This document shows, in pieces, positions 499 to 59,219 of a DNA stretch of 64,000 nucleotides. Each line of letters opens with the position of its first letter. The first letter of the stretch is position 1. Below the pieces are notes generated by a model. That model was not told the DNA's origin. It worked only from the letters and a program-made list of their open reading frames with translations, and did no database searches. The stretch is from Malacoraja senta (taxonomy: Eukaryota). The stretch covers positions 21,330,001 through 21,394,000 of the forward strand of contig CM075989.1 of NCBI GenBank assembly GCA_038087875.1. Reading direction: 5' to 3'. A program made the position numbers and the translations under genes.

Positions 499-646
499 GG
501 TAGACACAAAATGCTGGAGTAACTCAGCGGGACAGGCAGCATCTCTGGAGGAAAGGAATGGGTGACGTATTGGGTCACCAGCATTTTGTCCAGCATTTTG
601 TGTCTATCTTTGGTTTAAAATAGCGTCTGTAGTTCCTTCCTACACT
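499..646. mobile_element. Fold-back Penelope-tail short element
   Basis: Minus arm then plus arm of the PLE tail repeat; TSD gaatgctacaa at 488-498 and 647-657. Confidence 0.7.
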
Positions 647-1099
647 GAATGCTACAAAGGTTCTCTGCTCTTTATGAATGAATGAATGAATAAGTTTATT
701 GGCCAAGTATTCACATACAAGGAATTTTCCTTGGTGCTCTGCCCTCAAGTGACAACATGATAAACAGTGACAGTTAGGAATGACACAAAAAACATTAAAC
801 ATTAATAATAATTATGAAGACACACTATAGTAGCAAACTGGTTTAAATCTCAAGCAGAATCATGGAAGGCTGTACTCTACCAGCATTGTATAATGAGCTA
901 CCAATTAAACTTGCACCATCTAGTCACAGGAAACTCCTCAGCAAAGAGCAAGATTCATCTGCAGGAAGTGTTTCTGTCCATGGGGTTTGATGCACTAAGG
1001 GCGAGGAAGGACAAGTTCATCAAAGGTATCTCTTCCTTCCTGCTTGTGACTGATTACTCCTGATGTATTTTTGGATCGCGGATAGTTAGGTCGATAACA

Positions 1100-1462
1100 G
1101 CCACACAAAAAAAATGCAGGAGTAACTCAGCAGGACAGGCAGCATCTCTGGAGAGAAGGAATAGGTGACGTTTCGGGTCGAGACCCTTCTTCGGACTGAG
1201 AGTCAGGGGGGAGGGAAACAAGAGATTTCGATGGCGATGTAGAGAGGTGTAGAACAAATGGAAGAAAGATGTGCAACAAAAATAAAACAATGATCAAGGA
1301 AACGGTCCATTGTTAACTAAAACGAGTTCCAGCCAATGAGACTCATCAACATGACATTGAAACTGGCATAATGATTAGGGAGGGGGAGGGACAGAGAGGG
1401 AGGGGATGCAAGGGCTATTTGAAGTTAGAGAAATCACAATTCATACCGCTGGGTTGTAAGCT
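1100..1462 (-). mobile_element. Penelope-like element 3' end with degenerate hammerhead motif
   Basis: Reverse complement carries the ORF end agcttacaacccagcggtatgaa...ttctctaacttcaaatag (as at 58944-58990) and the hammerhead tail at 1167-1194. Confidence 0.7.
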
Positions 1463-1711
1463 CAATGTATAAGACACTTTGGTTTCAAGGTATAAGATCT
1501 TTACCCAGGGCCTGACTTCATCCAGAGATCACCCAGTGAATATAGACACAAAATGCAGGAGTAACTCAGTGGGACAGGCAGCATCTCTGGAGAGAAGGAA
1601 TGGGTGACGTTTCGAGTCGAGACCCTTCTTCAGACTTCACCCAATGAGGCTCCAATATCATCGATATGAATAAATTTGGACAAAATCCCCTCAACCATTG
1701 GAGCTCACTGG

Positions 1712-2554
1712 ATTTGATTTGATTTGATTCAATTTTATTGTCATTGTCCATAGTGCAAGTACTGAGACAACAAAATGCTTTTTTCCCATACAGCCATACG
1801 AATAAAATAAATAAATAAAAGCACAGAACACGTTATCAAAGTTGAACAGCGGTATCAAAGTTTCCCACTGTGAGGGAAGGCACCAAAGTTCAGTCAACCT
1901 CCACGTTGATGTTCTTTGATGCTCTTTGATGTTCACCCGTGGTCGGGGCCTCCCGAGCCCCCCGCAGTCACTGCTATGGGCGGCCCGATGTTCAGGCCCT
2001 CTCGCCGGGATGATGGAACTCCGACGTCAGAACGGAAGAACAACCTCAGCGGCTTGGACCTCCGAATCGGACACTTCCTACCTGAGTCCGCGGCTCCCGA
2101 AGTCTACAGGCCGAGCTGGGCGGAGATTCAACGCTGGCGGCCCTCGGCAAAGGGTCCAAGGACTCCGCGCTGGGAGCTCTGCAAACCACAGCTCCGCGAT
2201 GTTGATGCAGCAGGTCCAACACTACGGAACTTCAAACGGCGATCCCAGGTGAGGCATCGCCCGCTCCGCGATGTATCCAGTGCTGCGCCGCCGCTGCTGA
2301 AGCTCTGGTCCGCTCCCCAGGCAGGAAAGGCCACGCCAATCCAGTTGGTAGGCCGCGAGGAGGGGGGGCGAGGGCGCGACTCGGAGAATAGTCGCATCCT
2401 CGCCAGGAAGTGACTGAAAAACGGTTTCCCCCTTACCTTACCCTCCTCCCCCACATAAGATACTGAAAAAAATCCTCCAAAACATAATTTAAACAAACTA
2501 AAAATAAAAAAAGATAGAAAAACAAACAGACTGTAGGCAGAGGCAGCCATCTTG
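1712..2554 (-). mobile_element. GC-rich non-autonomous retroelement with L2/Rex1-like tail
   Basis: Minus strand begins caagatggctgcc, has a CpG-rich body and ends gacaataaaattgaatcaaatcaaatc; modules shared with 35635-36305. Confidence 0.55.
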
Positions 2555-2819
2555 CAGCCCCCTGGATGTACAAAATGCTACAAAAGCACGGATAAAGGGT
2601 ACATTGGAATGCCCACATTTCCAAGCGGGGCAACGTGGTCCCATGTGAATGAGAGCATTTCACCGCGCTGGCTTTAGCCTGCTCAAGACCGGTGGACTTG
2701 AAATGGTAATGAAGAGATCTACAAAGCTGCAATAGGCCATTGGAAATGTGAACACTCCAGTCAGTGTAGGATAAGATTGTGGAGGTCAGGACATCGTGAC
2801 ACCGCTCCCAGCAGCCATG

Positions 2820-3505
2820 AGGCAGCTCTGTAGGACTTTGGTCAGACCGCATATGCAGCATTGCGTGCAGTTCTGGTCGCCCCTGTTACAGGAAAGATGT
2901 GGAGGCTTTGGAGAGGCTGCAGAGGAAGTTTACCAGAAATAGACTCAAGCTGCTGGATAACTCAGCGATTCAGGCAACATCTCCGGAGACAAAGGACAGG
3001 TTGAGACATCAGCATCTGCAGATCTTAGTTTCTACATTGAGGTTTACCAGAAAGCTGCCCGGATTAGAGGGCTTCAGCTACAGGGAGAGGATGGAGAGAC
3101 TTGGATTGTTTTCTCTGCAACATCAGAGGTGGAGGGGAGATTTGATAGATTAATATAAAATAATGAGAGGCATAGATAGGGTAGACAGTCAGAACCTTTT
3201 CCCCATGATGGGAATGTCCAACACTAGAGGGCGCAGCTATAAGGTGAGAGCGGGAGGGTTTAATGGAGATTTGCGGGGCAAGTTTCATACACAGAGAGTG
3301 TTGGGTGCCTGGAACACATTGCCAGGGGTGGTGGTGGAGGCAGATACGATAGTGGTGTTTAAGAGGCTTTTGGACAGGCACATGGAAGTGCAGGGAATAG
3401 AGGGATATGGATCATGTACAGGCGGACAAGATCAGTTTAACTTAGCAGCATGTTCGGCACAAACATTGTGGGCCGAAGGGCCTGTTCCTGTGCTGTACTG
3501 TTCTA
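2820..3505 (+). mobile_element. CR1/HER1 LINE 3' fragment (RT C-terminus and 3' UTR), interrupted at 2940-3041
   Basis: Translations LERLQRKFTR, YRERMERLGLFSL, HTQRVLGAWNTLP; tail gggccgaagggcctgt. Confidence 0.85.
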
Positions 3506-4135
3506 TGATCTGTCTTCATGCAGCACACATTTACACCTCATTGCTGGCTATATTTGTGTACACTTTGTAGTTAGTTAAATAAAGCACCAACTCCAAAGGG
3601 AACAGTCACGACATAATTATTTTCCAATTGATTGAATTGCATAAGTTATATGGAACACTGATAGAGCAGAATGAGGAAATATTGTTTAACGCATTAGCCT
3701 AAGGTAAGGAGTTGGTGCTTAACATTCTATGACATAAGGATGTAAATCTGTTGGAAATTCTCCGATGAAACTTGTTCTTAACTGCCAGGTGATTTACTGT
3801 GCCTTTGTAAGCATAATTCTCTTATGTTTCTGAACAGAAGCACAATGCACCTAATACCCTCGGCCAATTAGAATTTTAATGTTTAGCTGTGGTCTCTTCC
3901 TAAAAACGTATTACCAAATGAAGTCCTTAAAAACCACTGCTGCGGGCTTTTACCAATTATGGCATTAAATAAAATCTGCACCATAATTATTCCGACAAAG
4001 TATGAATTTAACTTAATCCTTTCTTTCCTAATGTATGAAATCATTTCTGCAAGCTATCGATCATGATGTGGCAATGAAAGGCATGTCTCAGTAAGGCTAG
4101 GACGTGATCTAATAATTGCAAACTAGAGCAAACTT

Positions 4136-4447
4136 GGGGCGCAGCGGTAGAGCTGCAGCCTCACAGCGCCAGAGACGCGGGTTCGATTCTGACCATGGGT
4201 GGTGTCTGTACGGAGTTTGTACGTTCTCCCCGTGACCACTGTGGGTTTTCTCTCCGAGATCTTCGGTTTCCTCCCACACGCCAAAGACGTACAAGTTTGC
4301 AGGTTAATCGGCTCGGTACAAATGTACAATTGTCCCTAGTGTGGGCAAGGTAGTTTTAATGTGCGGGGATCGCTGGTCGGCGCGGACTCGGTGGGACGAA
4401 GGGCTTGTTTCCGCGCTGTATCTCTAGACTAAACTAGACTAAACTAG
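4136..4447 (+). mobile_element. HE1-like V-SINE
   Basis: tRNA-like head (gcgcagcggtagag, B-box gggttcgattc), V-domain, CR1-like tail, ctaaa-type repeats. Confidence 0.85.
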
Positions 4448-4470
4448 AACTACAGCAAGTAAAAACTAAA

Positions 4471-4566
4471 AGGTACACAAAAATGCTGGAGAAACTCAGC
4501 GGGTGCAGCAGCATCTATGGAGCGAAGGAAATAGGCAACGTTTCGGGCCGAACCCCTTCTTCAGAC
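4471..4566 (-). mobile_element. Penelope-tail short element (variant B) with hammerhead motif
   Basis: aacgtttcgggccgaaccccttcttcagac; TSD gtaaaaactaaa at 4459-4470 and 4567-4578. Confidence 0.7.
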
Positions 4567-5823
4567 GTAAAAACTAAACTAAAATTAAACTAAACTAAAG
4601 ATCAGCAGAATCGAACTTTCGACAACTTTTCTCAACTATAATTTATGAGAACCCCAGTTTTTGAGATGGGCGCACTGTGACAAACTGTTTTTTGTAAAGT
4701 TTCAGATGTTAAATTTTAGCCCCAGCAGAGCATGGGAAATGCATGCTGACCACCAATGATAAGATTTGTATCATGTTTCGTGAACTCCAACAGTTGCTTT
4801 GTATTGCAGCAGGCAAGTTGAGGATTTATACTTGTGAAGTTAAGGATCAAATCCTTCCACGAGGCTTTGACCCGCGGAGGTTATCAATTCCACACCCTAT
4901 TTTTTCCTCTTTCTCTGCAGAGCCAATTGTTTGCCAATCTGAAATTCTTTGCTTGAATTGTGAGAATTTGGTTCGGATCAGGTAACGACAGCCCAGGATG
5001 TGCTTTGCAGCCTTTGACAATTTGTCTCTTTTATTCTGTTGACAATATTTGCTGAATATAATATTCTGAAGCCTGTGAACTGTGAATAGAATCTGATAAC
5101 TGTAAAATATGACCCAAGCAAGGGAAGGAAAAGGAACTCGCGATGGAGCATTGTTTTGCCCGTTTGAAATAAATGAAGCAGAACGGAAACAAGATTTGGA
5201 TATCCAATTAATTAATTACCTCAGGTTAAAAGGAGTTGACCCTTGGAGTTGAACTGGTAACAATAACAAGCCACATTATTGCACACACACAATGGTTGCA
5301 CAATCTAACTTTTTTTGCTTCTTGAGCAAAACTTACAGGGTGGGGGGGGGGTCTCATAAATTATAGTTCCCAGAAGCTGAGCAAGGTTTCAGACTGCAAT
5401 CTTATTCAACCCTGGGCAACCAACACTAGCGAGAAACAGTCAATTGTTCCAACGCGGGGTTTTACTTGCAGAAGGGTTTTTCCAAGAGTTTTCAGGAAAC
5501 AGGACCCCTCACTGAAAACTATTTATCTTATTCCGCCTTGCCAGAACATTAAAAGGGAATGTGAATTTCAGCTGGGCTCAACCTCACCATGGAGCATGTT
5601 TCAGAATTAGAGTAAAGGGGTATGAATAAATTTGAAAGAATTTTATTTTTTTCCATTTATTTAAAAATACATAATTGTATTCAAGTATTTAAATAAGGTC
5701 ATAAGGTCATAAGGGAAAGGAGTAGGATTAGGCCATTCAGCCCAATCAAGACAACTCCGCCTATCTCGCCTTCCTAACCCCATTCTCCTGCCTTCTCCCC
5801 ATAACCTCTGACACCCGTACTTA

Positions 5824-6143
5824 TAGCCCTGTCCCACGGTACGAGTTCATTCCAAGAGCTCTCCCGAGTTTGCCCTGATTCGAACTCGGAGATTTACGGC
5901 AAAGGCCGCTCGTCGGTACTCGGGGCTCTCGTGGGCATTTTTCATCATGTTGAAAAATCTTCACGAGTCTTCCCGTGCTTACCTGCCGTTAGCGAGTCTT
6001 CCCGAGTACCTGCCGTTAGCGCTAAGAGACGTCCCCGAGCTCCGACGTACCCGCTACGTTCATTCTCCGTGCTTACCACGAGTTTGATTTTTTTTAAACT
6101 CGGGAGAGCTCTTGGAATGAACTCGTACCATGGGACAGGGCTT
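5824..6143. mobile_element. PIF/Harbinger-type MITE
   Basis: About 48-bp TIR (tagccctgtcccacggtacgagttcattccaagagctctcccgagttt); TTA/TAA flanks; splits a minus-strand CR1 fragment (5695-6285). Confidence 0.8.
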
Positions 6144-6368
6144 TAACCAAGAATCTATCTATCTCCGCCTTAAAAATATCCACTGACTTGGCCTCCAGAG
6201 TCTTCTGTGGCAAAGAATTCCACAGATTCACCACCCTCTGACTAAAGATGTTTCTCCTTCCTAAAAGAACGTCCTTTAATTTGAGGGTGCAGCGTTAATT
6301 GCAGCATAGGTGTCTCCCCTTTAAGGATAACGTTCATCTGTGTTACATGAAACTGGTAAACTCTGGAA

Positions 6369-6581
6369 AAATGTGCAGGAAGGAACTGCAGATGCTGGTT
6401 TGTATCGAAGATAGACACAACATGCTGGAGTAACTCAGCGGATCAGGCAGCATCTCTGGAGAAAAGGAGTAGATGATGTTTTGGGTCGAGACCCTTCTTT
6501 AGACCTGTGTAGGAAATGTCACCTGTTTCTTTCCCCCAGAGATGCTGCCTGACCTGTTGAGTTACTCCTGCATTTTGTGTC
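6369..6581. mobile_element. Fold-back Penelope-tail short element
   Basis: Inverted arms; TSD taaactctggaa at 6357-6368 and 6582-6593. Confidence 0.7.
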
Positions 6582-6689
6582 TAAACTCTGGAAGAATTCA
6601 AGTCAGTCAGCATCCATAGAGAAATATGTGTTTAATGTTATTCTTCACTCTTCAGAAGTGGAAAAGGTTTCATGGAATAGCTGGATTAA

Positions 6690-6885
6690 ACCAAATACAA
6701 GACACGGGAGCTAGTTTGTGACTTCAGGAAGCGTGATGGAATACATGCCCCAATCAGCATTGATGGAGCGTAAATGGGTGAAAGCTTCAAGTTCCTTGGT
6801 TTAATATTACCAATGATCTGTCGTGGACCAACCACATTGATGCGACAGCCAAGAAGGCTCTACTCTCTGAAGAGACTGAGAAAAA
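6690..6885 (+). mobile_element. Degenerate Rex1/L2 RT fragment
   Basis: Frameshifted ESFKFLG...NDLSW...RLYSLKRLRK motifs. Confidence 0.6.
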
Positions 6886-6967
6886 ATCATCCCTCTGAAG
6901 TGGATAATCTCACCCTTCGCCACATTGTCCCTCATCTGCCAACTTCTTGCCCACTCACTTAGTCATG

Positions 6968-7305
6968 GTGTCACGGTAGCGCAGCGGTAGAGTTGCTGCC
7001 TTCACAACAAATGCAGCACTGGAGACCCGGGTTCGATCCCGATTACGGGTGCTTGTCTGTACAGAGTTTGCACGTTCTCCCCGTGACCTGCGTGGGTTTT
7101 CTCCGAGATCTTCGCTTTCCTCCCACACTCTAAATACGTGCAGGTTTGTAGGTTAATTGGCTTGGCAAATGTAAAATTAAAAAATAATTTAAAAAATTGT
7201 CCCCAGTGGGTGTAGGATAGTGTTAGTGTACGGGGATCGCTGGTCGGCGCGGACCCGGTGGGCCGAAGGGCCTGTTTCCGCGCTGTATCTCTAAACTAAA
7301 CTAAA
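6968..7305 (+). mobile_element. HE1-like V-SINE
   Basis: Full head, V-domain and tail; diagnostic ttcacaacaaatgcagc variant. Confidence 0.85.
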
Positions 7306-7530
7306 CCCACCTTCCCCCTGTGTCCTACTAACCCAGTTATCTACTGTATGCAAGGTCAATAATGGGTCCATCAACATCTGCTCCGTAATAGCAAAAGTGG
7401 TGAATAAAGGCCCATCTTTAGCTGTAGAAGTTAAACAAGTTATTTATTTCCAGCTTTGTCTGTTTTCATTTCAGATTTACAATTTTACCCATTCTTTTCT
7501 TTATATCTTTGAATCATTTGCCAGGTTACA

Positions 7531-7819
7531 GGGCGGCACGGTGGCGCTGGGGTAGAGCTACTGTCTTACAGCGTCAGGGACACGAGTTCGATCCCGACTA
7601 AGGGTGCTGTCTGTACGTTGTACGTTCTCCCCGTGACCTGCATGGGTTTCTTCAAGATCTTCGGTTTCCTCCCACACTCCAAAGGTTTGTAGGTTCATTG
7701 GCATAAAAGTAAAAAACCTGTCCCTAGTGTGTGTAGGGTAGTGTGAATGTGCGGGGATCGCTGGTCGGTGTGGACTCGGTGGGGCAAAGGGCCTGTTTCC
7801 TCGCTGTATTTCTAAACTA
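7531..7819 (+). mobile_element. HE1-like V-SINE
   Basis: gggcggcacggtggcg head, V-domain, tail. Confidence 0.85.
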
Positions 7820-8279
7820 CCTCCCGCATTCTTATAAAAGGCAGGGGATGTCCATTTGTGGATTCAGCTGTCTTCTATGAATGCATTTGTTTTCCTTAGT
7901 GTTCGACACATAAGCTGTTTCCTTTCACGTGATCAAGGCTCACTTGCCCAAATCCCTCATCTTCATCATCTCAGTTAAAGCCATCTTTGAAGTTTTCTGG
8001 ATCATCCCAGGCCTTTCTGGGAAGTTAACAAAAACACAGAGGTCTCATGAGTCCTAACACTCCTTTCCTAATCATGGCGACAGTGGTGATTTCCGTTTTG
8101 CCTGGTGATAGGCAGGATCAGGTGCCTTCTCATATATAACAGGAACGGTTAAACCCACGTTCTTTCAACATCCATCACTCACGACAGGATGCGGATATTT
8201 CTGGCACTTATTCCAGCCTCAATCAACAATTTCTTTGTTTTATGCCAACTCTGTTGGAACTGTCTTTCTGAAGTCATCC

Positions 8280-8785
8280 AGAACGATGTGCCATTCTACA
8301 TTTCCTTGAGCATCGTCCCCTTTGATCTGTTTTTTCACACCTTACCCTTCCATATCTCTATCTCTCCCTCTCCCCTGATACTCAGTCTGAAGAAGGGTCT
8401 TGACCCGAAACGTCACCCAATCCTTCTCTCCAGAGTTCTATAGTTTGTTGTTATTATAGTGTCGGTCTATACTATGTACCAATATGCTTGCATCTAGCCC
8501 TTTCTTTAACTAACATTCTATCTATTTCACAGCTAACAATGAACCATTCCCTTGATCATCTTTATATTTACACATATTTTTCATTCATTTGTTATATATC
8601 TCTTATCTCTTAATATCACTGGCTATATCTCTTGTTTCACTTTCCTCTGACTCCTTGTCTAAAGAAGGGTCTCGACCCAAAACGTCACCCGTTCCTTCTC
8701 TCCAGAGATGCTGCCTGACCCGCTGAGTTACTCCAGCATTTTGTGTCTCTCTTCGGTGTAAACCAGCATCTGCGGTTCCTTCCTA
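8280..8785 (+). mobile_element. Tandem Penelope 3'-tail copies with hammerhead motifs (8387-8414 intact; about 8659 degenerate)
   Basis: ctgaagaagggtcttgacccgaaacgtc, then a second copy about 270 bp downstream. Confidence 0.7.
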
Positions 8786-9099
8786 AAGAAGGCATTTGGT
8801 GTGCTCACCTTCATTGATCGGGTCATTGACTACAAGCATCAACAATCATGTTGATTGGAATTATTCAGGACTTCCCCAACTTCTCTGACTTCAAGTAACC
8901 CTTGCATCCCCTCTCTGTCTATTCCCTCCCCCACACTAGTTGTCATACTAGTTTCACTGTCGTACTGTTGAGTTTTACCGTCTACATAACTCATTATCAC
9001 TGACCCCTCCCCCACAGTCAACAATGGACCATTGTGGGCTCCACGTTTCCTTGACCGCCGTTGCTTTTTGCATATGATTAGGCTGCATTTTGGGCTATT

Positions 9100-9430
9100 G
9101 TGTCGGAAGGAACTGCAGATGCTGGTTTTCACTGACGATAGAAACAAAAAGCTGGAGTAACTCAGCGGGACAGGCAGCGTCTCTGGAGAAAAGGAATAGG
9201 TGACATTTCAGGTCGAGACCTTTCTTCAGACTGACAGTCAGGGGAGAGGGAAATGAGAGGTATGGAAGCTACATAGAACAAATGAATGAAACAATGCAAA
9301 AAGCAACGTTGACCAAGGAAAGGTGGAGCCCGCAATGAGCCAGGGTGGGGGTGGGACGGAGAGAGAGAGGGGAAGCAAGTGTTACTTGAAGTTAGAGAAA
9401 TCAATATTCATACCGCTGGGTTATAAACTG
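9100..9430 (-). mobile_element. Penelope-like element 3' end
   Basis: Reverse complement of the GIY-YIG end (cccagcggtatgaatattgatttctctaacttcaagtaa) plus hammerhead tail. Confidence 0.7.
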
Positions 9431-9664
9431 GGGCAGTTTGGCCAAGTGGGAATTGGCAGGTTCTTGATTAGTGCGGGTGTCAAAAGATTATGGGGAGAAG
9501 GCAGGAGAATGGGGTTGAGAGGGAAAGATAGATCAGCCATGATGAAATGGTGGAGTAGACTTGCTGGGCCGAATGGCCTAATTCTGCTACTATGACTTAT
9601 GAAACGCCACCTATCCATTCTATCCACAGTGATGCTGCCTGACCGGCTGAGTCACTCCAGCACT

Positions 9665-9905
9665 AGGTGCACAGAATCTTTTACCCAGAGTGGGGGAATC
9701 AAGGATCAGAGGACATAGGTTCAAGGTGAAGGGGAAAAGATTTAACAGGAATCTGAGGGGTAACCTTTTCACACAAAGGGTGGTGGGTGTATGGAACAAG
9801 CTGCCAGAGAAGATAGTTGAGGCTGGGACTATCCCAATGTTTAAGAAACAGTTAAACTGGTACATGGGATAGGACAGGTTTTGGAGGGATATGGACCAAA
9901 GGCAG
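9665..9905 (+). mobile_element. CR1/HER1 3' fragment
   Basis: GESRIRGHRFKV...FTQRVVGVWNKLP. Confidence 0.8.
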
Positions 9906-9909
9906 GCAG

Positions 9910-10440
9910 TTTTAGAGATACAACGAGAAAACAGGACCTTCGGCCCACCGAGTCCACACCGATCAGCGATCCCCGCACATTAACACTATCCTACACACAC
10001 TAGGGAAAATTTACATATACACCAAGCCAATTAACCTACAATCCTGTACGTCTTTGAAGTGTGGGAGGAAACCGAAGATCTCTGAGAAAACCCAGTGTTT
10101 AAGAAGGAACTGCAGATGCTGGAAAATCAAAGGTAGACAAAAATACTGGAGAAACTCAGCGGGTGCAGCAGCATCTATGGAGCGAAGGAAATAGGCAACG
10201 TTTCGGGCCGAAACCCTTCTTCAGAAGCACGAAAAGTTGCCTATTTCCTTCGCTCCATAGATGCTGCTGCACCCGCTGAGTTTCTCCAGCATTTTTGTCT
10301 ACCTCTGAGAAAACCCATGTGGCCATGGAGAGAACGTACAAACTCCGTACAGACGGCAACCGTAGTTGGGATCGAACCCGGGTCTCCGGCGCTGCGAACG
10401 CTGTAAGGCAGCAACTCGACCGCTGCGCCACCGTGCCGCC
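9910..10440 (-). mobile_element. HE1-like V-SINE interrupted by a fold-back element
   Basis: Reverse complement of the SINE; insertion at 10095-10302. Confidence 0.8.
10095..10302. mobile_element. Fold-back Penelope-tail element (variant B) with hammerhead motif
   Basis: Near-perfect inverted arms; 15-bp TSD ctctgagaaaaccca at 10080-10094 and 10303-10317. Confidence 0.8.
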
Positions 10441-11547: not shown

Positions 11548-11561
11548 AGTGTGAAAGATAC

Positions 11562-48505: not shown

Positions 48506-48667
48506 ATCTAAATTATATTGATCTTATCCTATCAATAATAATGACAGTGGATCCATGATAGTCCTCTGGATGGTGAGGCACCTCACTGTCCATTTGGACT
48601 GAGGAAGTCTGTGTTATTTTGCTACTATCTGTATCCTGTGGAAACATAGATACCATATTGTGCCATT

Positions 48668-48999
48668 TAGTTTTGTTTAGTTTAGTTTAGTTTAGAGATA
48701 CAGCGCGGACACAGGCCCTTCGGCCCACCGAGTCCGCACCAACCAACGAACCCCGCACAATAACACCACCCTACACCCACTAGGGACAATTTACACACAC
48801 ACCAAGCCAATCAACCTTTAAACCTGTACGTCTTTGGAGTGTGGGAGGAAACCGAAGATCTCGGAGAAAACCCACGCGGTCACGGGGAGAACGTACAAAC
48901 TCCGTGCAGACAACGCCCGTAGTCGGGATCGAACCTGGGTCTCTTGCGCTGCACGCGTAGTAAGGCAACCACTCTACCGCTACGCCACCGTGGCCGCCC
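48668..48999 (-). mobile_element. HE1-like V-SINE
   Basis: Reverse complement, full length. Confidence 0.85.
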
Positions 49000-49389
49000 A
49001 AGTGCCCAATCTGAGTGCATGCATTATTAAATCTCGCTGAATAACACACTTTTGTGCAAAACTATGCTGGATGGCCAAAGATCTGTGTATTAGATCCATG
49101 GCTAAGTTAGACAGTCAGAACTTTTTTTTCCACCCAAGGTGGAGACGTCAAAAGCTAAAGACCAAATGAATATAGAACAAATGAATGAATAATTTTTTGC
49201 ATATCTTTCATTCATCTGTCCTACATCTCTCTACGTCACCATCTATATCTCTCGTCTCCCTTTCCTCTGACTCAGTCTGAAGATCGACCCGAAGCGTCGC
49301 CCATTCCTTCTCTCCAGAGATGCTGCCCATTCCCGCTGGGTTACTCCAGCATTTCGTGTCTATCTACACCAACCGTATATATTTTTCTG

Positions 49390-49498
49390 TTCAAGAAGGA
49401 ACTGCAGATGCTGGAAAATCGAAGGTAGACAAAAGTGCTGGAGAAACTCAGCGGGTGCTGTCGCACCCGCTGAGTTTCTCCAGCACTTTTGTCTACCT
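49390..49498. mobile_element. Minimal fold-back Penelope-tail element
   Basis: Inverted arms; 14-bp TSD tatatatttttctg at 49376-49389 and 49499-49512. Confidence 0.75.
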
Positions 49499-50178
49499 TA
49501 TATATTTTTCTGGTCCCTTAACACTTGGATTTATCTGCTCAAGGTCAAATTTCTCCCCCTATCCCCACAATATACATAAACAGAAAAACTGCAAAGTGGA
49601 TTTCTTGTTTGTATTGTTTACTGTCCTGCCTCGAAAGAAAATCCCATAGCTGTCAATTGGTTTTTGTTAAGTTCTCCCCAATAAAAGGCATCAGGCGGGA
49701 TTTATTAGGCACTCAAGGCACACATTTAGTTTTTCGCCAGTTATTAAGTGAAAATCAATACAAAGCAAGAAAATGGAAGTTGTACAGCTGTTAGTGTGCT
49801 GTTGTTTCCCAGATATTATGTCAGCTGTCTCATAGATTCATGGCGATCTCAAGCTGCAGGAGAGAACTTTTGCTTACATTGCAAGACCAAAGTGGGGTTA
49901 TTCATTAGCGAGGCGACGTGCCAGATAGATTTCCGCAGCTCCGTCCATTTGTCTTCAAAATGCTGGGTTCTAGAGAAAAGGAACACTGGTAAAATGTGAT
50001 ATCGATGTCAGTTTTATGTATCTCGATTGCGATTTATCGGTGGCTCTTTCTGCAGACCTTTCTATTTTTTTTTTTAAAGAAAAACACTTCACATGAAAAA
50101 GATATCTGCACCCTCATCTCAGGATCCTCTCCACCGCTGTTTATTTTGCCAGATTTATAGCCAAACTGGAGACTGAAC

Positions 50179-50181
<3 letters not shown>

Positions 50182-50226
<45 letters not shown>
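50182..50226. repeat. (GT)n microsatellite
   Basis: Perfect GT run. Confidence 0.95.
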
Positions 50227-50228
<2 letters not shown>

Positions 50229-50624
50229 AAAACATCAATTCCATGCAGAAGCAACCAAGTTGCTCAGTGTATGATATTGGAGACTTTTGGCTATCCAGAT
50301 ATAATGATCCCACCCAATTGCTTTGAACATTAACTGCAATAAAAGTTTGATGTTTGGCTTACTTTTAAGGGTTGTTTCCTTAGGTAACATTTCAAAGCCA
50401 GCTGACAACAACCACCCCCCCCCTACCCCCCCCACCGCCACCTCTACAAGTCCAAGGTCAATTATAATCGCAAACTAGAGATATCTTTAAATCAGAGAAG
50501 CATTCTGCACGGAAAGAGAGCCATTGGCACAACTTGTCCAAGCCAATCTAGATCTCTCATCTAGGCTAGTCCCATTTGATTGATTGAAAGATACAACATT
50601 GTATCGGCCCATCCAGTCCACACA

Positions 50625-50875
50625 AGATGGCGTAGCGGTAGAGTTGCTGCCTTCCAGCACCAGAGACCCGGGTTTGATCCTGACTGCAGGTGCTGCCTGT
50701 ACGGAGTTTGTACATTCTCCCCGTGACCTGCGTGGGTTTTCTTTGGGAGCTTCGGTTTACTCCCGCTCTCCAAAGACGTACAGGTTTGTAGATTAATTGG
50801 CTTGGTAAATGTTTGTACTTGGTGGGCCAAAGGACCTGTTTCCGTGCTGTATCTCTAAACTAAACTAAACTAAAC
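50625..50875 (+). mobile_element. HE1-like V-SINE (internally deleted)
   Basis: Head, V-domain, tail. Confidence 0.8.
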
Positions 50876-51171
50876 GAACAATTATGAGCTCAATGGAGAG
50901 CACGACAAGGCTCAAAGGCCTCTGGCCTGCTCGAGTTTTGGCCAATTGTCTCATTGCTGCTTTGAATGCCTCCGTCAATTGTCTCAGACTTGGGTTGTGA
51001 CGGTTGAGGGCATTAATGATTATTTTACCAACAAATGTCTTCATTCAAATCTGAGCATGTCCACGTTTCAACATATATCTTTTAATCTCTGGAAGATAGA
51101 GGCAAGACGTTAACCTGCATAATTAACTCCAGTTGAATGCGGTAATTAAATAAACCTTCAAAAACAGACAT

Positions 51172-51460
51172 TGGGCGGCATGGTAGGGCAGCGGTAGAGT
51201 TGCTGCCTTACAGCGCCAGAGGCCCGGGTTCGATCCTGACTACGGGTGCTGTCTGTACGGAGTTTGTACGTTCTCCCTGTGACCGCGTGGGTTTTCTCCG
51301 GGTGCTAAAAACCTGGTTTCCTCCCACACTCATAGACATATAGGTTTGTAGGTTGATTGGCTTTGGTAAATTGTCTCCAATGTGTAGGGTAGTGCCAGAG
51401 TATGAGGTGATCGCTGGTCGGAACGGACTCAGTGGGCCGAAGGGCCTGTTTCTCTGAAGT
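51172..51460 (+). mobile_element. HE1-like V-SINE
   Basis: Full structure. Confidence 0.85.
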
Positions 51461-52299
51461 CTAACTATATTCAGTTCTCAGTAAATACCATTGAACCTGT
51501 GCTGGTCTCCATCAGTGTTAGTGTTGTATAAAAACAGCTAAGTGAACAGGGGGCAGCTGGTGTTCATTTATTAGATATCAGCTACAGAAAACAACACAGC
51601 TTTTAAAAAAAATATTTTGGAAAACATTCTCATGGTCGTATAAAATCCGATTATGGGCATATTTTCATTTGATTTCAGTTCCCCTAGTGGGCTTACACTT
51701 CGCTCTCCTCACCTCTCGATTATCTTTGCAAGTAAATACAAGTGAAATGTTTTATATTCCACGCTGGTGTACTCTGTTGAGCTAGAGTTGCTCCAGGTAC
51801 AATGTAAACCCCAGCAATTCTTCTGCAAGGCAAGAACCTGATGATGGATCGACTTGGGACCTGGCTGGAGATGAGCACTGAAGGCGAAGGTGATAAAAGC
51901 ATCGTGAGAAAAGGAAACTTAGATGAGTCAGTCCTGCCTCCTCACGCTTGCTCAACAAATCCAAACCAGACCAAAGCTCAATGCTAAAATAATCAGAGAG
52001 ATTTCGTTTTTTTAGACTGAAGAATGTTCTCGAAACCGAAACGTCACCCATTCCTCCTATCCAGAGATGCTGCCTGTTACTCCAGCATTTTGCGTCTATC
52101 TTCGGCATCAGCCAGCACCTGCAGTTCCTTCCCACACAAGTTTAGTTTTTGTAGTTTAGTTTAGGTTAGAGATACAGCGCGGAAACAGGCCCTTCGGCCC
52201 ACCGAGTCCGTGCCGACCAGCGACCCCCACACAGTTCTGTCAAAGAATCACATGTAGTCTGCAGTTTTCCTTCACTTAGAAGCGGTCAGAAATGTGAGC

Positions 52300-53205
52300 T
52301 TGAGTTGAGTTTATTGTCACGTGTAGCGAGGTACAGGGAAAGGGTTATTGTTGCGGCTATCCCGTCAGTGAAAAGACAAGACATGATTACAATCCAGCCA
52401 TTACGGTGTATAGATACGTGACATGGGAGTAACATGTAGTGCAAGGTAAAGCAAGGAAAGTTCGAACAAGGATAGTCTGAGGTAGATAGTAGTTCAGCAC
52501 TGCTCTCTGGTTGTGGTAGGATGATTCAGTTGCCTGATAACAGCTGGGAAGAAACTGTCCCTCAGATTCAGATTCAGATTCAGATTCAACTTTATTGTCA
52601 TTGTGCAGTGTACAGTACAGAGACAACGAAATGCAGTTAGCATCTCCCTAGAAGAGCGACATAAATATGAGCAGTAAATAAATAAATCTAATCTAATAAA
52701 TCCTGGTGGGAGGAGTGTCCGGGGGGGGGGGGGGTGATTGGCAGTCACCGAGGTACAGTGTTGAGTAGTGTAACCGCCGCAGGGAAGAAGCTGTTCCTGG
52801 ACCTGCTGGTCCGGCAACGGAGAGACCTGTAGCGCCTCCCGGATGGTAGGAGGGTAAACAGTCTGTGGTTGGGGTGAGAGCAGTCCTTGGCGATGCTGAG
52901 CGCCCTTCGCAGACAACGCTTGCTTTGGACAGACTCAATGGTGGGGAGTGAGGAACCGGTGATGCGTTGGGCAATTTTCACCACCCTCTGAATCTGGAGG
53001 TGTGCGTTTTCACACTTTTATGCCTTTTGCCCGATGGGAGAGGGGCGAAGAGGGAGTGGCCGGGGTGCGACTCGTCCTTGATTATGCTGCTGGTCTTGCC
53101 GAGTCAACGTGAGGTGTAGATGGAGCCAATGGAAGGGAGGTTGGTTTTTGTGTGATGGTCTGGGCTGCGTCCACAATTCCTTGAAATTTCTTGCGGTCTT
53201 GGACG
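52300..53205 (-). mobile_element. Rex1/L2 3' fragment with a second Rex1 fragment nested (52563-52988)
   Basis: VKIAQRITGSSLPTIES...HPNHRLFTLLPSGRRYRSLRCRTSRSRNSFFP; (ctgaat)n tail. Confidence 0.8.
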
Positions 53206-55249
53206 GAGCTACCCGACAAAGTTGCACATTTGCAACTCTGTCGAAGCAAGAGAAGAAACTGCTGGGACGTTTTGACTCCGAAACAAGTGTTGTCCTTTCA
53301 GAATAGGGTCGGTGACCTGCAACCCTATTCACCCAGGCAACTCGGCTGCTGCCATTTTGAAATAGTCCAACCGTCTAACACTTGAAACGCCTGCCTGTTT
53401 CAGGCAATGGTCCCATACAAGAACTAAATTGGGTTCATTGACTCCTCCGATTGTTATTTTCTGTTGGAAATGGCTGGAGCGCACCTTGTTATGCTCTGAT
53501 TATTTTTGTAGGCAATAAAGAGGTAGAGCTGAAATAAGTTTAATAATATTTCCGTGGTGTAGGAGGAATATGAATGATCCTTCTGGTACCTAAAAAGTAA
53601 TTTGGATCCCTGGCACGTTGGAACCTTTCTTGCCCTTGCCCTCTGGAGATTACTTATGTCATTTGCTAACATTTCCGTTGGTCTTCACTGCCCAGTGTTT
53701 TGGGGCTTCAGTCCAGCAAGCTGTGTCTGCTTTTGTGTGCTCTCTTAATGAAGACATCATTCAAAATCACTGTTGTTCTCCCAGTCCGAATGGTGGCGGT
53801 CAGTGTTTAGCCACGGACTCGCGTCGGAGTCAGAACTCAGCCTCAGTGAGTCAGGGCTGGGAAGGCCGCGATAATGATAATGGCCAGCTTTGTTCTCAAC
53901 GCTGCAGACCTTCAGAGGGAAAACATTTTAAACACTGAGTCGCATTTCTTTGAATTCAAGTCCAAGCTGGGCTTGGGCGAGGAGAGGGTGCCGGATGCTG
54001 GTCAGCCAAGGAAGGCAATGGTTTCCGGCCTACAGCAGCCTGGGGCTCGCCTGGATCACAACACATGGAGACTTGACTTGGGAAATGTCACCAAAACATG
54101 GCTCCTCCTGCAGCTACCATCCACCTCATTGGAGACCCGTGGACTATCTTTACTGTATCTTGCACTAAACATTATTCACGTTATTTCCTTCATCGTGTAT
54201 CTGCACACTGTGGACGGCTCGAGTGAAATCATGTCTTGTCCTTCCGCTGACAGGTTAGCACGCAACAAAAGCTTTCCATTGTACCTCGGTACACGGGACA
54301 ATAAACTAAACTCAAACAGCAGTCTGAAGAAGGGTCTCGACCCAAAACGTCACCCACTCCTTCTCTCCAGAGATGCTGCCTGTCCCGCTGAGTTACTCCA
54401 TCATTTTGTGTCTATCTTCAAACTCATCATATTTCGCCCCTCTCGTCTTAAACCTACTGTATGTCCTCTGTTTCGTGATCCCCTCACTCTGGGTAAAAGA
54501 CTCTGTGCATAGTGCTGCAGGTTTTCTCGTGAGCCTGTTGCACGTGTGATACAGAGTGTTTCTGACGCTGTGATGCAACATTTGCGCGACGGTGCCGTGC
54601 TATTTATGTTTTTCTTGCATCATATTTGCAGCTCATTGCCTCTGTTTGTGACCTGCAGCAAAGTCACGCAAAGTGCATGTGGATGATCTAATGCATGGGA
54701 GCTAGCCCGTGGCAACGCTAAGATCAGATTTCCACTGCGTTAAGCAGAGATGTAGCACACAACATGCAACTGGCTGTTCTTACCGATTAGATTCCAAAAT
54801 GGCTGAAGGCAGCCTTCTTTCAAAGGGCTGGAGTCTTAGAAGAAAACCACGTTTGCAAAGGAATTACGGATTGTGAATTAGTTTTCCAAATTGGTTGGAC
54901 ACTCTCTGCTACCTCAGATTTAGATCTAACAAGGAGATACTCTATGATCTGTGCACAAGGTTTAAGAGGATTTGAAGTGCCAGGCCCTGGGGAATGTTGT
55001 CTTCCGCCACTCAAGGTGACTGCAGCGATTCCCATCATGTCAGTGTTACCTTTCTAATCGCTGAGGGTGACACCATGGGCAGATCAGACAGCGTTGTCAA
55101 AAACTATTTCTCAGCTTCCTGAAGCTTTGTTCAGGAGACACAATGGTTTCATCTGCCTCCCTTCTCTCCCGCAGCAATGGTTGAGGACAAGGCGAGCGAT
55201 TTTTTTTCCCGCACCAACGTCGAGATTTCTCAACACCCTCTGAGCCCCC

Positions 55250-55552
55250 ATCGCGTCTGAAGAAGGGTCTCGACCCGAAACGTCACCCATTCCTTTCTCT
55301 CCAGAGGTGCTGCCTGTCCCGCTGAGTTACCCCAGCATTTTGTGTCTCCCATCGCATTTGATCTCTCATTTTCACACCTCACCCCTCCATGTCTTTGTGT
55401 CTCCCTCTCCCCTGACTCTCAGTCTGAAGAAGGGTCTCGACCCGAAACGTCACCCATTCCTTTCTCTCCAGAGATGCTGCGTGGCCCGCTGAGTTACTCC
55501 AAAATGTTGTGTCTGTGTTCGGAGTAAACCACGTCTGCATCTCCTTCCTATG
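55250..55552 (+). ncRNA. Tandem pair of minimal type-I hammerhead ribozyme motifs (55257-55284, 55424-55451) in a Penelope-tail dimer
   Basis: Two identical ctgaagaagggtctcgacccgaaacgtc cores 167 nt apart. Confidence 0.6.
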
Positions 55553-56017
55553 CATCACATCGCTCCCATCGACGCCAGCCAGCAGCGCCAGATGGAGTGG
55601 GCTATCGACAATGGTCCCATGGAGAATGGCCGCCCCCCCCCGTGACGCATTTAAGGCTCCATGCATGCTCCCACAACCGTAGTACATTGCGATAAACCTC
55701 GAAGGACAGATGCAGTTCATTTGACTTCCCCTCCATTGCTAGACTCACCGCTGATCACATAGATAGCCCTTCAGCCCATCATGTCCATACTGATCCCTGC
55801 ACTTATCAATGAGAGTCCCATTTACCTACATTGGGTCCATAGCCTTGGCCATTCAGATGCCTGTCTCGATGCTCATTAAATGCTGTGAGGAACTCTGCCT
55901 CCTCCAGAGAACGTGTACATGACTCCAAACACCCAGTGTGAAACCAAAATACCCTTCTTAGCCTCCTACCGCTCCCCTTAAACCTTATGCCCTCTTGCTC
56001 AAGGCACCCGTATCATC

Positions 56018-56318
56018 CACGGCACAGTAGCGCAGGGGTAGAGTTGCTGCCTCACAGCGTCAGAGACGCGGGTTCGATCCTGACCACGGGTGCTGTCCGT
56101 ATGGAGTTTGTACCTTCTCCCCGTGACCGTGTGGGTTTTCTCTAGGTGCTCTGGTTTCGTCCCACACTCCAAAGACGTGCAGGTTTGTCAGTTAATCGTT
56201 TTCTGTAAATTGTAAATTGTGTAGGATGGTGTTAGTTTACGGGTTATTGCTGGTTGGCGCAGGCACGGTGGGCCGCCGGGCCTGTTTCCACGCTGTCTCT
56301 CGAAAACTAAAACTAAAA
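56018..56318 (+). mobile_element. HE1-like V-SINE
   Basis: Full structure. Confidence 0.8.
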
Positions 56319-56484
56319 CAATGAAAGATAGTTACATCTGGAAAAATCACGCCCTGCTACTCCCAACAACAACCCCCAAGCCCTTGCAATCCCTTCTCTT
56401 TAAGTGACACATGTATTCATGTGTAATATGTACAAATGCTACTCCTGTGTTGGATAGTGCTAGTGTACCGGCTGATCGCTGGTC

Positions 56485-57008
56485 AATAGACAATAGACAA
56501 TAGACAATAGGCGCAGGAGTAGGCCATTCGGCCCTTCGAGCCAGCACCGCCATTCACTGTGATCATGGCTGATCATCCACAATCAGTACCCCGTTCCTGC
56601 CTTCTCACCAAATCCCCTGACTCCGCTATCTTTAAGAGCTCTATGTAACTCTCTCGTGAAGGCATCCAGAGAATTGGCCTCCACTGCCTTCTGAGGCAGA
56701 GAATTCCACAGATTCATTCCTTTAGTGAGAATCCTGCACATTGTGGATCCTTGAGAGTGCGCAAAGTGCAATGTAATATAGGATTAGGTTTCGTTTTGGT
56801 TTTCCACAGACTCACAACTCTCTGGGTGAAAACGTTTTTCCTCATCTCTGTTCTAAATGGCCTACCCCTTATTCCTAAACTGTGGTCCCTGGTTTTGGAC
56901 TCCCCCAACATCTGGAACATGTTCCTGCCTCTAGTGTGTCCAGACCTTTAATAATCTTATATGTTTCAATAAGATACCCTCTCATCCTTCTAAACTCCAG
57001 TGTATACA
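56485..57008 (-). mobile_element. CR1/HER1 3' fragment with an 85-bp templated insertion
   Basis: GESKTRDHSLGIRGRPFRTEMRKNVFTQRVV; (tctattg)n tail. Confidence 0.85.
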
Positions 57009-58149
57009 ATTCGCAACTCTCTGGGTGACCCAGACACGATGGGCTGAAGGGGCTGTTTCTCTGACGTGTCTGTATCTCTAAAGTCTCATTGTGCCATTAT
57101 TTTGAAAGTGTGAAGCTTTATTTAGTGTTTTGCTGTTGGTGGGGTGGGGTGGGGGGGATTAACATTATGATGTGCTTGCATCTCCTGGCTTTTGCTTTAA
57201 CAGGCGGATATTTTCAGCCGCTCTTTTCACAGGTGGCCAGGGTTGCAATCTAAAGTCGTGACTCAAGTCACCAGGGTCAAATCCACAAAGTTCAGCCTAA
57301 GAACAATATAATCAAAAGCATCAAGTCAAATGATTAGTAATAGAGAGGGCTCTGGGGATTTTAAACATGTGTTTCCTTTGTTTGAATGTTATGGAGGAGT
57401 GAGCTTAGAGCAGAGTCCTAAGAGAGCTGACTTCATCTTTGCAGCAAGCTGTGTTTTATATAACATTCCTACCACCCGTAGTAGACCTTTCAAAGAGCAG
57501 CAACAATAAGAAAGATTTAGAGAAAAGGACACAAAGGAATACAGTAATGACGAGCAAGGATCACGGACCTGTGTAACGTTTCATTGCAGAAACACTTTAT
57601 ATAAAGATATTCCGTGGTTTTGGCAGATCTTAACTTGGTATGGTATCAGTTAGAGGTGAACTTGGTGGCACTGTTTAACAATGTTGTCTTTATTTAGTCA
57701 AGGCTACAGAATTAAAGACAATATTGTCTTTACCCCTGGAACCCTCTCGTACCTATCCTTTCCCTCTCCCTGACTCTCGGTCTGAAGAAGGGTCCCGAGC
57801 CGAAACGTCACCCATTCCTTCTCTCCAGAGAGGCTGCCCGTCCCGCTGAGTTACTCCAGCATTTTGTGTCAGTCTTTATTTAGACTTGGTTTGTGGCAGC
57901 TGTGATGTGCCTCTTCCGAACACTTTGAGTTTGTGCAACCACTAACTAAGCTTTCCTGTCTCCACCCTGAACAGACTAATCAAAACCAAAGTATTTTATC
58001 CACAGATGATTCCATTTGGGACATTTCAGGGTGTGTACAACCCTGTCCCTCCTACACTTGGTGTCAGCTTTGGCTCTGGGGGTAAAATTCTTACCAGAGA
58101 GTCAGAAGATCAGTGAGTTCACACACCACCCTTGAACATAGGCTGTGTC

Positions 58150-58462
58150 ATTTAGAGATACAGCGCGGAAACAGGCCCTTCAGTCCACCGAGTCCGCGCC
58201 GACCAGCGATCCCCGCACATTAACGCTATCCTGCACACACTGGAGACAATTTACACTTGTACCAAGCCAATTTACCTACAAACCCGCACGCCTTTGGAGT
58301 GTGGGAGGAAACCGAGGATCTCGGAGAAAACCCACGCAGGTCACGGGGAGGACGTACAAACTCCGTACAGATAAGCACCCGTAGTCGGGATCGAACCCGC
58401 TTCTCCGGTGCTGCAAGCGCTGTAAGGCAGCAACTCTACCGCTGCGCCACCATGACGCCCCC
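58150..58462 (-). mobile_element. HE1-like V-SINE
   Basis: Reverse complement, full length. Confidence 0.85.
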
Positions 58463-58771
58463 CTAGGCTAATCTAGGCCAACATAGAGGTGGCACAGTGG
58501 GGCAGATGGCAGAGCCACTACCTCACTGAGCGAGAGACCCTGTGGAGTTTGCCCGTTCTCCCTGTGACCGGGTAGGTTTTCTCCGGATGTTCCGGTTTCC
58601 TCCCACATCCCAAAATCATGCGAGTCTGTAGGTCAATCGGCCCGTGTGAATTGGCCCTAGTGAGTGGATGAGGAAGTGGGATAATCTGAATGTTTGAACA
58701 GGTGATCTATGGGCAGCATGGGCTCTGTGGGCTGAAGGGCCAGTTCCCATGCTGTACCTTTAAAAAAATAT

Positions 58772-58990
58772 TTCGCTCAAAACCTCTGCTCAGTCCGCCT
58801 TAACCTATCTGATCTCCAGGTTGCAAAGCACTTTAACTCCCCCTCCCATTCCCAATCTGACTCTTCTGTCCTGGGCCTCCTCCATTGTCAGAGTGAGGCA
58901 CAGTGCACATTGGAGGAACAGCACCTCATATTTCACTTGGGCAGCTTACACCCCAGCGGTGTGAACATTGACTTCTCTAACTTCAAATAG
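58772..58990 (+). pseudogene. Penelope-like retroelement GIY-YIG endonuclease C-terminal remnant
   Basis: In-frame FAQNLCSVRLNLSDLQVAKHFNSPSHSQSDSSVLGLLHCQSEAQCTLEEQHLIFHLGSLHPSGVNIDFSNFK*, matching the PLE pattern VA.HFN...H and E..LI..LG.L.P.G.N. Confidence 0.8.
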
Positions 58991-59088
58991 CCCTTGCTTT
59001 CCCTCTCTCACCATCCCCTCCCCATTCCCAGTTCTCCCAACAGTCTTACTGTCTCCGACTACATTCTATCTTTGTCCCTAACATCAGT

Positions 59089-59116
59089 CTGAAGATGGGT
59101 CTCAACCCGAAACGTC
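59089..59116 (+). ncRNA. Minimal hammerhead ribozyme motif in the PLE 3' tail
   Basis: ctgaaga-t-gggt-ctca-accc-gaaac-gtc. Confidence 0.55.
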
Positions 59117-59219
59117 ACCCATTCCTTCTCTCCAGAGATGTTGCCTGTCCCGCTGAGTTACTCCAGCATTTATATGTACATATATATAGATATATACACG
59201 CACATATATATACTATACA

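What the first reader, a model, noticed from the sequence alone, without database searches (positions are those of the whole stretch)
499..59170. Window-wide family of short repeats built around a minimal hammerhead ribozyme
Seen: dozens of 100-300-bp copies contain CTGAAGA-A-[GGGTC tc GACCC]-GAA-ACGT-C (variant A) or CTGAAGA-A-[GGGT TTCG GCCC]-GAA-ACGT-T (variant B). Cores are intact or near-intact at 8387(+), 10197(-), 24265(-), 29817(-), 38523(+), 55257(+), 55424(+), 57782(+) and 59089(+). The two variants differ in helix II sequence but both keep the pairing. Known: Penelope-like elements carry minimal type-I hammerheads (CUGANGA/GAAA/NUH) in which helix III is replaced by a palindromic tetramer, and these are thought to cleave as dimers. 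Inference: this genome has a very abundant ribozyme-bearing, retrozyme-like family, and intronic copies could cleave or fold host pre-mRNA.
Basis: partly seen in the sequence, partly recalled or inferred. Interest (0 to 1): 0.75.

Follow-up and report, generated by a model that had tools for sequence, protein, structure and literature searches.

The report
Penelope retrotransposon ends carrying minimal hammerheads
These repeats are the short end pieces of a very abundant Penelope-type jumping gene and carry the tiny self-cutting RNA motif already known from such elements; the scattered copies are decaying and likely inactive, but many start at one fixed point that likely marks where the element's RNA begins.

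Summary
The motif is real: 17 matches in the window, none in 100 shuffles, and 62,682 exact cores genome-wide. It is not a separate retrozyme family. It is the terminal repeat (pLTR) of an autonomous Penelope-like element. It lies about 90-240 nt downstream of a GIY-YIG endonuclease stop, also inside the window at 58772-59116. A full-length copy elsewhere has a 1,224-codon RT+endonuclease frame with variant B at both ends. Variants A and B are older and younger subfamilies; their helix II difference is one-sided, not compensatory. Helix I has only 2 bp, so 1 of 13 window motifs meets the published descriptor. Core bases decay like flanking bases. Copy ends avoid the predicted cut site: 5' ends pile up just before the core (98 of 289) and 3' ends lie about 60-105 nt past the cut, so the copied RNA was uncleaved. 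No host exon was found, so cleavage of intronic pre-mRNA is unsupported. Verdict: new member of a known kind. The one open lead is the fixed 5' start, likely run-off at the transcript's 5' end.

The parts
58772..58990 (+). C-terminal remnant of the Penelope-like GIY-YIG endonuclease frame (72 codons and stop)
   Evidence: 82,699 first-look candidates genome-wide, best 150 at 78-100% identity
58991..59088 (+). Pyrimidine-rich 3' UTR between the endonuclease stop and the hammerhead core
   Evidence: same layout
59089..59116 (+). Minimal hammerhead core, variant A, in its native place in the element's 3' end; helix I 2 bp
55254..55540 (+). Two same-strand copies 167 nt apart, both with intact cores (55257, 55424): the window's one natural dimer candidate
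   Evidence: double-hammerhead fold predicted 21.3 kcal/mol above the minimum
8330..8437 (+). Copy with intact variant A core at 8387-8414, cut short on its 3' side
10123..10304 (.). Head-to-head pair, variant B; intact core 10197-10224 on the minus strand
24197..24389 (.). Head-to-head pair, variant A; intact core 24265-24292 on the minus strand; no helix I
29745..29844 (-). Short solo copy, variant B, starting exactly at the core; no helix I
38465..38639 (.). Head-to-head pair; core at 38523 gains a 4-bp helix I from the inversion junction, the only window motif that meets the published descriptor
57753..57876 (+). Copy with core at 57782-57809; helix II broken by a G-G mismatch
4458..4566 (-). 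Short solo copy, variant B, core 4537-4564, helix II 3 bp
1534..1636 (-). Short solo copy, variant A, core 1606-1633, starting 3 nt before the core
1107..1450 (-). Longer copy with the last endonuclease codons and 3' UTR; core mutated
9114..9430 (-). Longer copy with the last endonuclease codons and 3' UTR; palindrome lost by CpG decay
11395..11547 (.). Fold-back pair inverted inside helix II; no core left
24684..24835 (.). Fold-back pair inverted inside helix II; no core left
41670..42093 (.). Cluster of partial copies, including a 66-bp tandem array whose units lack the 5' half of the core
493..62308 (.). Whole family in the window: 52 segments, 5,129 bp; 46 carry the downstream anchor and 8 of these keep core, palindrome and 4-bp helix II

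Best explanation
The repeats are pLTR-end copies of an autonomous Penelope-like retroelement (reverse transcriptase plus GIY-YIG endonuclease, likely Neptune type) that carries a minimal hammerhead motif as cargo, and the dispersed copies are likely inactive debris. Shown: the motif sits in the 3' UTR and in both terminal repeats of a full-length element; variant B belongs to a young subfamily with intact frames and variant A to older ones; copies end at two fixed 3' points about 94 and 128 nt after the first core base; a third start within a few bases of the core. Inferred: the element's protein primes reverse transcription inside the 5' part of an uncleaved transcript at those two points, as shown in vitro for the Anolis element. 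The cDNA then runs off the RNA's 5' end just before the core, giving 95-135-bp solo insertions with target duplications, or folds back, giving head-to-head pairs. Longer copies come from templates that reach further upstream. Inferred: any ribozyme activity belongs to the parent RNA (dimeric or protein-assisted), not to host transcripts.
For: Endonuclease remnant 98 nt upstream of the core inside the window. Motif 89-219 nt past the endonuclease match by the script's offset in 19 of 20 hits; the 20th has a deletion in the core. L041: 726-bp 5' pLTR with 5 differences from the 3' end, 1,224-codon frame, weak RVT_1 (E 1e-5) and GIY-YIG (E 0.0015) matches, motif at 2398 and 6316. 14 of 16 selected young copies are identical over 95 nt. 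5' ends at -8..+2: 98 of 289 copies, and 33 of 75 non-inverted copies of at least 88% identity; at the cut site (+26..+30): 11 of 289 and 2 of 75. 3' ends at the cut site: 0 of 129. The optional 35-nt tail is present at the 5' pLTR-frame junction of L041 but not at its 3' end. Direct repeats of 8 nt or more flank 11 of 46 short solo copies versus 0 of 46 mismatched pairs. Core non-CpG mismatches 17 of 338 versus 21 of 488 in the flank; G12 mutated in 7 of 34. The same anatomy is described in PMC8557442, PMC11167929 and PMC4209133.
Against: No RNA data: neither transcription start nor cleavage was observed. The extra-G signal expected from a capped RNA is only modest and confounded. Both Pfam matches are below the curated cut-offs. 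The clade name rests on one linker motif, with no tree. The core is unchanged between A and B while the UTR upstream is unalignable, which fits selection on the parent elements, though 11 sites cannot show it. About 3 of the 11 flanking repeats are low-complexity or not adjacent. The sample (702 kb) was taken at round coordinates on large contigs plus this window and its flanks, so it is not strictly random.
Confidence: 0.85

Rival explanations
1. The short copies are an independent non-autonomous, SINE- or retrozyme-like family, transcribed from solo copies, cleaved and circularised by the hammerhead, and mobilised by the Penelope enzyme.
For: Short solo copies are very numerous, have fixed ends and target duplications. 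Retrozymes derived from pLTRs are reported in vertebrates, including one chondrichthyan (bioRxiv 10.64898/2026.07.22.740005). A solo copy that keeps an internal promoter could be re-transcribed.
Against: Copy ends do not fall at the cut site. The one tandem array in the window (66-bp unit) lacks the 5' half of the core. The short copies inspected match the autonomous subfamilies and have unrelated 5' flanks.
Confidence: 0.1
2. Dispersed copies act as ribozymes in host pre-mRNA, cutting or refolding introns.
For: 62,682 exact cores; 4,629 of them have a G at -3 that gives a 3-bp helix I; one same-strand intact pair lies 167 nt apart in the window; 77 of 289 copies have an inverted partner.
Against: Neutral-rate decay of the core. 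Helix II probability 0.12 or less and helix I 0.0 in four monomer folds. The natural pair's active fold is 21.3 kcal/mol above the minimum (no positive control run). Published minimal monomers do not cleave and dimers cleave weakly (PMC4209133); 8 of 9 frog dimers did not cleave. No exon detected in the window.
Confidence: 0.07
3. The parent is a Penelope-like element, but the 5' pile-up reflects a preferred stop or microhomology join of the reverse transcriptase at the edge of the pyrimidine tract on a longer RNA, not the RNA's 5' end.
For: 5' ends spread over about 10 nt, and several target duplications overlap the first bases of the copy. Purines in general, not only G, are enriched next to the 5' end. 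80 of 289 copies extend further upstream.
Against: No stable structure is predicted just upstream in transcripts starting at -3; the boundary coincides with an initiator-like TCAGT (consensus recalled) that all subfamilies keep; Penelope of D. virilis has an internal promoter in its pLTR (PMC2377424).
Confidence: 0.3

Closest known systems
[quoted passage not shown]
   Same: CUGANGA core, one extra base before helix II, G-C first pair, GAAA, palindromic 15.2-16.2, NUH; in both pLTRs of full-length elements and mostly found as solo or opposite-strand pairs. U at the cleavage site is common in their alignment.
   Different: Helix I is 2 bp (U-A or U-G plus G-C), below their 3-bp descriptor; their 2-bp cases (Culex, some Drosophila, Oikopleura) have two G-C pairs. 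The count here (62,682 by a pattern without helix I) exceeds their largest (about 9,000 in Xenopus, with helix I required), so the numbers are not like for like. No cartilaginous fish is among their 56 aligned motifs.
Endonuclease-positive Penelope-like elements, Neptune type (Craig et al. 2021, PMC8557442)
   Same: Single RT + C-terminal GIY-YIG frame, CX2-5CxxC linker, CCHH, partial tandem forming a pLTR, inverted 5'-truncated neighbour, optional 30-40-bp tail.
   Different: Frame of 1,224 codons with a long proline-rich stretch before the RT; clade not confirmed by a tree.
Poseidon of Anolis carolinensis (Frangieh et al. 2024, PMC11167929)
   Same: Two internal reverse-transcription starts bounding the tail; unprocessed RNA is the template; no ends at the hammerhead cut site.
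   Different: There the frame begins at stem II and priming is inside the frame; here the first ATG lies about 160 nt after the core and both priming points are upstream of it. Their hammerhead was shown to cleave with protein; this one is untested.
Non-LTR retrozymes of animals (PMC7229834, search listing only; bioRxiv 10.64898/2026.07.22.740005)
   Same: Non-coding, type-I hammerhead, related to pLTRs.
   Different: Defined as tandem repeats with a complete hammerhead in each unit; here copies are dispersed solos or inverted pairs and their ends avoid the cut site.

Membership tests
Endonuclease-positive Penelope-like element | One frame with RT followed by GIY-YIG endonuclease | tested here: met
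   L041 1,224 codons; RVT_1 and GIY-YIG in order, both below curated cut-offs; 912 full-length relatives at E<=1e-20
Endonuclease-positive Penelope-like element | pLTR made by a partial tandem of the 3' end | tested here: met
   L041 1767-2492 equals 5685-6410 with 5 differences
Endonuclease-positive Penelope-like element | Inverted 5'-truncated neighbours and optional 30-40-bp tail | tested here: met
   77 of 289 copies with an inverted partner; 3' end peaks near +94 and +128
Neptune clade | CX2-5CxxC linker between RT and endonuclease (shared with Nematis) | tested here: met
   present in the L041 translation; definition from PMC8557442
Neptune clade | Placement in an RT tree with named references | not tested
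   no named reference set was available
Minimal type-I hammerhead (published descriptor) | CUGANGA and GAAANNUH core with palindromic 15.2-16.2 | tested here: met
Minimal type-I hammerhead (published descriptor) | Helix II of 3-7 bp | tested here: met
   4 bp; 13 window motifs; predicted pairing probability low in context
Minimal type-I hammerhead (published descriptor) | Helix I of at least 3 bp | tested here: not met
   2 bp in the parent elements; 1 of 13 window motifs and 5 of 67 sample motifs reach 3 bp (descriptor)
Minimal type-I hammerhead (published descriptor) | Compensatory changes in the helices | tested here: not met
   A versus B differ on one side only; only two close subfamily types compared in detail
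Minimal type-I hammerhead (published descriptor) | Self-cleavage as dimer or with protein | not testable with these tools
   needs bench work
Rfam hammerhead families | Covariance-model match | tested here: not met
   no hammerhead family among 44 matches at E<=1
Non-LTR retrozyme | Tandem array with a complete hammerhead in each unit | tested here: not met
   window only: the 66-bp array lacks the core; one two-copy pair at 55257/55424; the genome was not screened for arrays
Non-LTR retrozyme | Cleaved and circular RNA | not testable with these tools
   no RNA holder listed

The most novel reading that the evidence does not exclude
Hundreds of thousands of 95-135-bp insertions are strong-stop-like products of Penelope retrotransposition: priming at two internal sites and run-off at a capped 5' end that lies 1-4 nt before the hammerhead core. 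The genome would then record in vivo both the element's transcription start and its priming sites, and show that the hammerhead stays uncut in the RNA that is copied, with its 2-bp helix I set by the transcript's first bases.
Probability: 0.5. Interest if true: 0.45.

Novelty: new member of a known kind. Interest (0 to 1): 0.22.

Why it matters
As a ribozyme discovery it is ordinary: minimal hammerheads in Penelope-like terminal repeats have been known since 2014. Two things are of use to specialists. First, this genome holds a young subfamily with intact frames and tens of thousands of intact cores, which makes it good material for the open question of what the hammerhead does for these elements. 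Second, the copy ends give genomic support, in a different lineage, for the internal-priming, uncleaved-template model shown in vitro for the Anolis element, and they predict an exact transcription start that one 5' RACE experiment can test.

Tried and rejected
Rfam scan: no hammerhead match; the microRNA-like hits are the fold-back pairs, all below gathering scores. Cap-derived extra G: G before AGT 5,425 versus A or T 8,206 (ratio 0.66, background 0.445) and G before GT 4,629 versus T 3,234 (ratio 1.43, background 0.58-0.78). A is also enriched (roughly 64 of the first 100 listed, hand count), and A-to-G decay and inversion junctions add G, so this is inconclusive. Splice acceptor at the CAG before the core, as in D. 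virilis: rejected for now because short copies have unrelated 5' flanks with no shared exon and no GT..AG joint appeared among the 15 joints shown of 164. Expression: no RNA holder listed; four coded runs of other organisms, kept as contigs and only guessed to be RNA, hold the family but cannot show starts or cleavage. Variation of the core across species was not obtained, so conservation beyond this genome is untested. Host gene: 140 non-repeat frames of 52 codons or more gave one Pfam hit, ALKBH8_N, which I recall as a LINE-derived false hit; short exons would be missed. Lunse et al. 2017 on dimer cleavage is not held; only its title was seen. Literature searches for this family in sharks or rays and for a pLTR start site with solo copies found nothing relevant; subscription journals and Repbase are not covered. 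In one search two rows (L014, L119) are misaligned at the core; dropping them by hand gives core 8 of 318 versus flank 18 of 460 (9 of about 420 without two subfamily-diagnostic sites), so the conclusion holds.
Full report
Observation. A 28-letter core pattern gives 17 matches with up to 2 mismatches, 8 of them exact, against none in 100 shuffles. The family covers 52 segments and 5,129 bp of the window. Genome-wide (1.94 Gb) the exact pattern occurs 31,560 + 31,122 times, with a reversed control of 0. In 702,400 sampled bases (64 stretches plus the window) 289 copies carry the downstream anchor, about 411 per Mb, which would scale to roughly 0.8 million; 167 of 289 cover the core and 39 keep core, palindrome and 4-bp helix II. 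No Rfam hammerhead model matches. Positions below count from the first core base (0); the predicted cut follows +27.

What it is. At 58772-58990 the window holds the last 72 codons of an endonuclease frame, 98 nt upstream of the core at 59089. Of the 20 best genome hits to this piece, 19 carry the motif shortly downstream and the 20th has a deletion in it. Walking upstream gave RT-bearing copies, and a search with the RT piece gave frames up to 1,224 codons. Locus L041 is a complete element: a 726-bp 5' pLTR with 5 differences from the 3' end, one frame of 1,224 codons with weak RVT_1 and GIY-YIG matches in order, and variant B at both ends. It has the CX2-5CxxC linker that PMC8557442 (passages) gives for Neptune and Nematis; no tree was built. 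Among 16 long-frame copies chosen, 14 are identical over 95 nt, so B is a young subfamily; A copies have broken frames and several different 3' UTRs. The host looks like a cartilaginous fish; this is recalled and echoed by unchecked earlier notes, not tested.

The ribozyme motif. The layout matches the minimal hammerheads of PMC4209133 (main text parts 1-2 of 4; supplement file 2 whole; file 1 not readable). It fails that paper's descriptor at helix I, which needs 3 bp: the parents have 2. Without helix I, 13 window motifs pass; with 2 bp, 10; with 3 bp, only 38523, whose helix comes from an inversion junction (0 in 20 shuffles). That paper does list 2-bp variants, all with two G-C pairs, so the motif is best called a weak variant of the known kind. 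Because many copies begin at the core, their helix I depends on the flank: 4,629 genome copies gain a third pair. A and B differ by a one-sided helix II change, a loop base and the cut-site base, so there is no covariation. Folding gives helix II probabilities of 0.12 or less in four contexts and puts the double hammerhead of the 55257/55424 pair 21.3 kcal/mol above the minimum; these models ignore Mg, tertiary contacts and protein, and I ran no positive control.

Selection. In 35 copies chosen by the endonuclease end and the downstream block, not by the core, non-CpG core sites differ in 17 of 338 cells, the flank +30..+43 in 21 of 488, and G12 (a CpG) in 7 of 34; 18 of 35 keep all 11 core bases. 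Dispersed copies therefore decay neutrally. The core is the same in A and B, but so is most of the -5..+95 block, and this cannot separate ribozyme selection from promoter or protein-binding constraints.

Copy ends. 3' ends cluster near +85-99 and +120-134; 0 of 129 core-anchored copies end at the cut. The 35 nt between the two peaks are present at the 5' pLTR-frame junction of L041 and absent from its 3' end: this is the Penelope tail, which PMC11167929 (parts 1-2 of 4) explains by two internal priming sites on unprocessed RNA. 5' ends pile up at -8..+2 in 98 of 289 copies (33 of 75 non-inverted copies of at least 88% identity) and at +26..+30 in 11 of 289 (2 of 75) (first pass 74 of 185, where about 6 rows belonged to a subfamily not yet among the references). 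Flanks upstream are unrelated, and 11 of 46 short solo copies have flanking direct repeats of 8 nt or more versus 0 of 46 controls, so they are separate insertions. Contigs of another organism show loose ends at -3 as well (19 contigs), a weak hint. 77 of 289 copies have an inverted partner, often folded back inside helix II.

Mechanism. Shown: element anatomy, fixed ends, neutral decay. Inferred: a transcript starts just before the core at an initiator-like site (consensus recalled; an internal pLTR promoter is reported for D. virilis, PMC2377424, passages), is not cut, is primed at about +94 or +128, and yields short cDNAs that integrate, fold back, or extend on longer templates. I put the parent identity at about 0.95, the inactivity of dispersed copies at about 0.85, and the start-site reading at about 0.5. 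The cap-G test was inconclusive. No RNA run was on record.

Host effect. No exon was found among 140 non-repeat frames, so 'intronic' is unverified. Published monomers do not cleave, dimers cleave weakly, the Anolis motif needs the element's protein, and 8 of 9 frog dimers did not cleave (bioRxiv 10.64898/2026.07.22.740005, parts 1-3 of 5; supplements closed, and they may name the chondrichthyan families). PMC6765202 and PMC6155905 were read as passages.

Verdict. A real, very abundant, ordinary member of a known class. Interest 0.22; the fixed 5' start is the part worth a test. Eight earlier notes from other genomes reach the same reading, several with the same start point; they are unchecked and are not counted as support.

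Noticed in passing
L131-L134 (G000 C1, four places; e.g. L132 near 3088 +): A separate AT-rich dispersed repeat of at least 400 bp with a different hammerhead-like core (short helix II, ACGU palindrome). No helix I next to the core, but a 5-nt complement of the 3' strand lies 18 nt upstream; no RT frame of 130 codons or more tied to it within 3 kb.
   Followed up: partly
L045:2660 (+): A diverged relative of the family with a 5-bp helix I, suggesting that older lineages had a canonical helix I that A and B lost; single copy seen.
   Followed up: partly
L041:2556-2564: The first ATG of the long frame overlaps a good splice-donor match, so an intron could remove the start codon, as in other Penelope-like elements; no spliced joint seen.
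   Followed up: no
L041:2395-2530: The predicted fold of an RNA starting at -3 pairs its first bases with the end of the tail, and the 5' strand of helix II can also pair with the bases just after the cut site: a possible switch that keeps the ribozyme off.
   Followed up: partly
L051 and L052: Large head-to-head pairs of RT-bearing copies with frames running outward from the inversion point.
   Followed up: no
window 21267-21869 (+), 3154-3567 (+), 30354-30767 (-), 61539-61877 (-): Fragments of LINE-type reverse transcriptase C-termini (CR1/L2-like by recall); about 55% of the window matches repeats in the other loci.
   Followed up: no
window 37112-37311; 27732-28202; 59551-60264: A 200-base assembly gap and two long simple-repeat tracts (CT-rich and CA-rich).
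   Followed up: no
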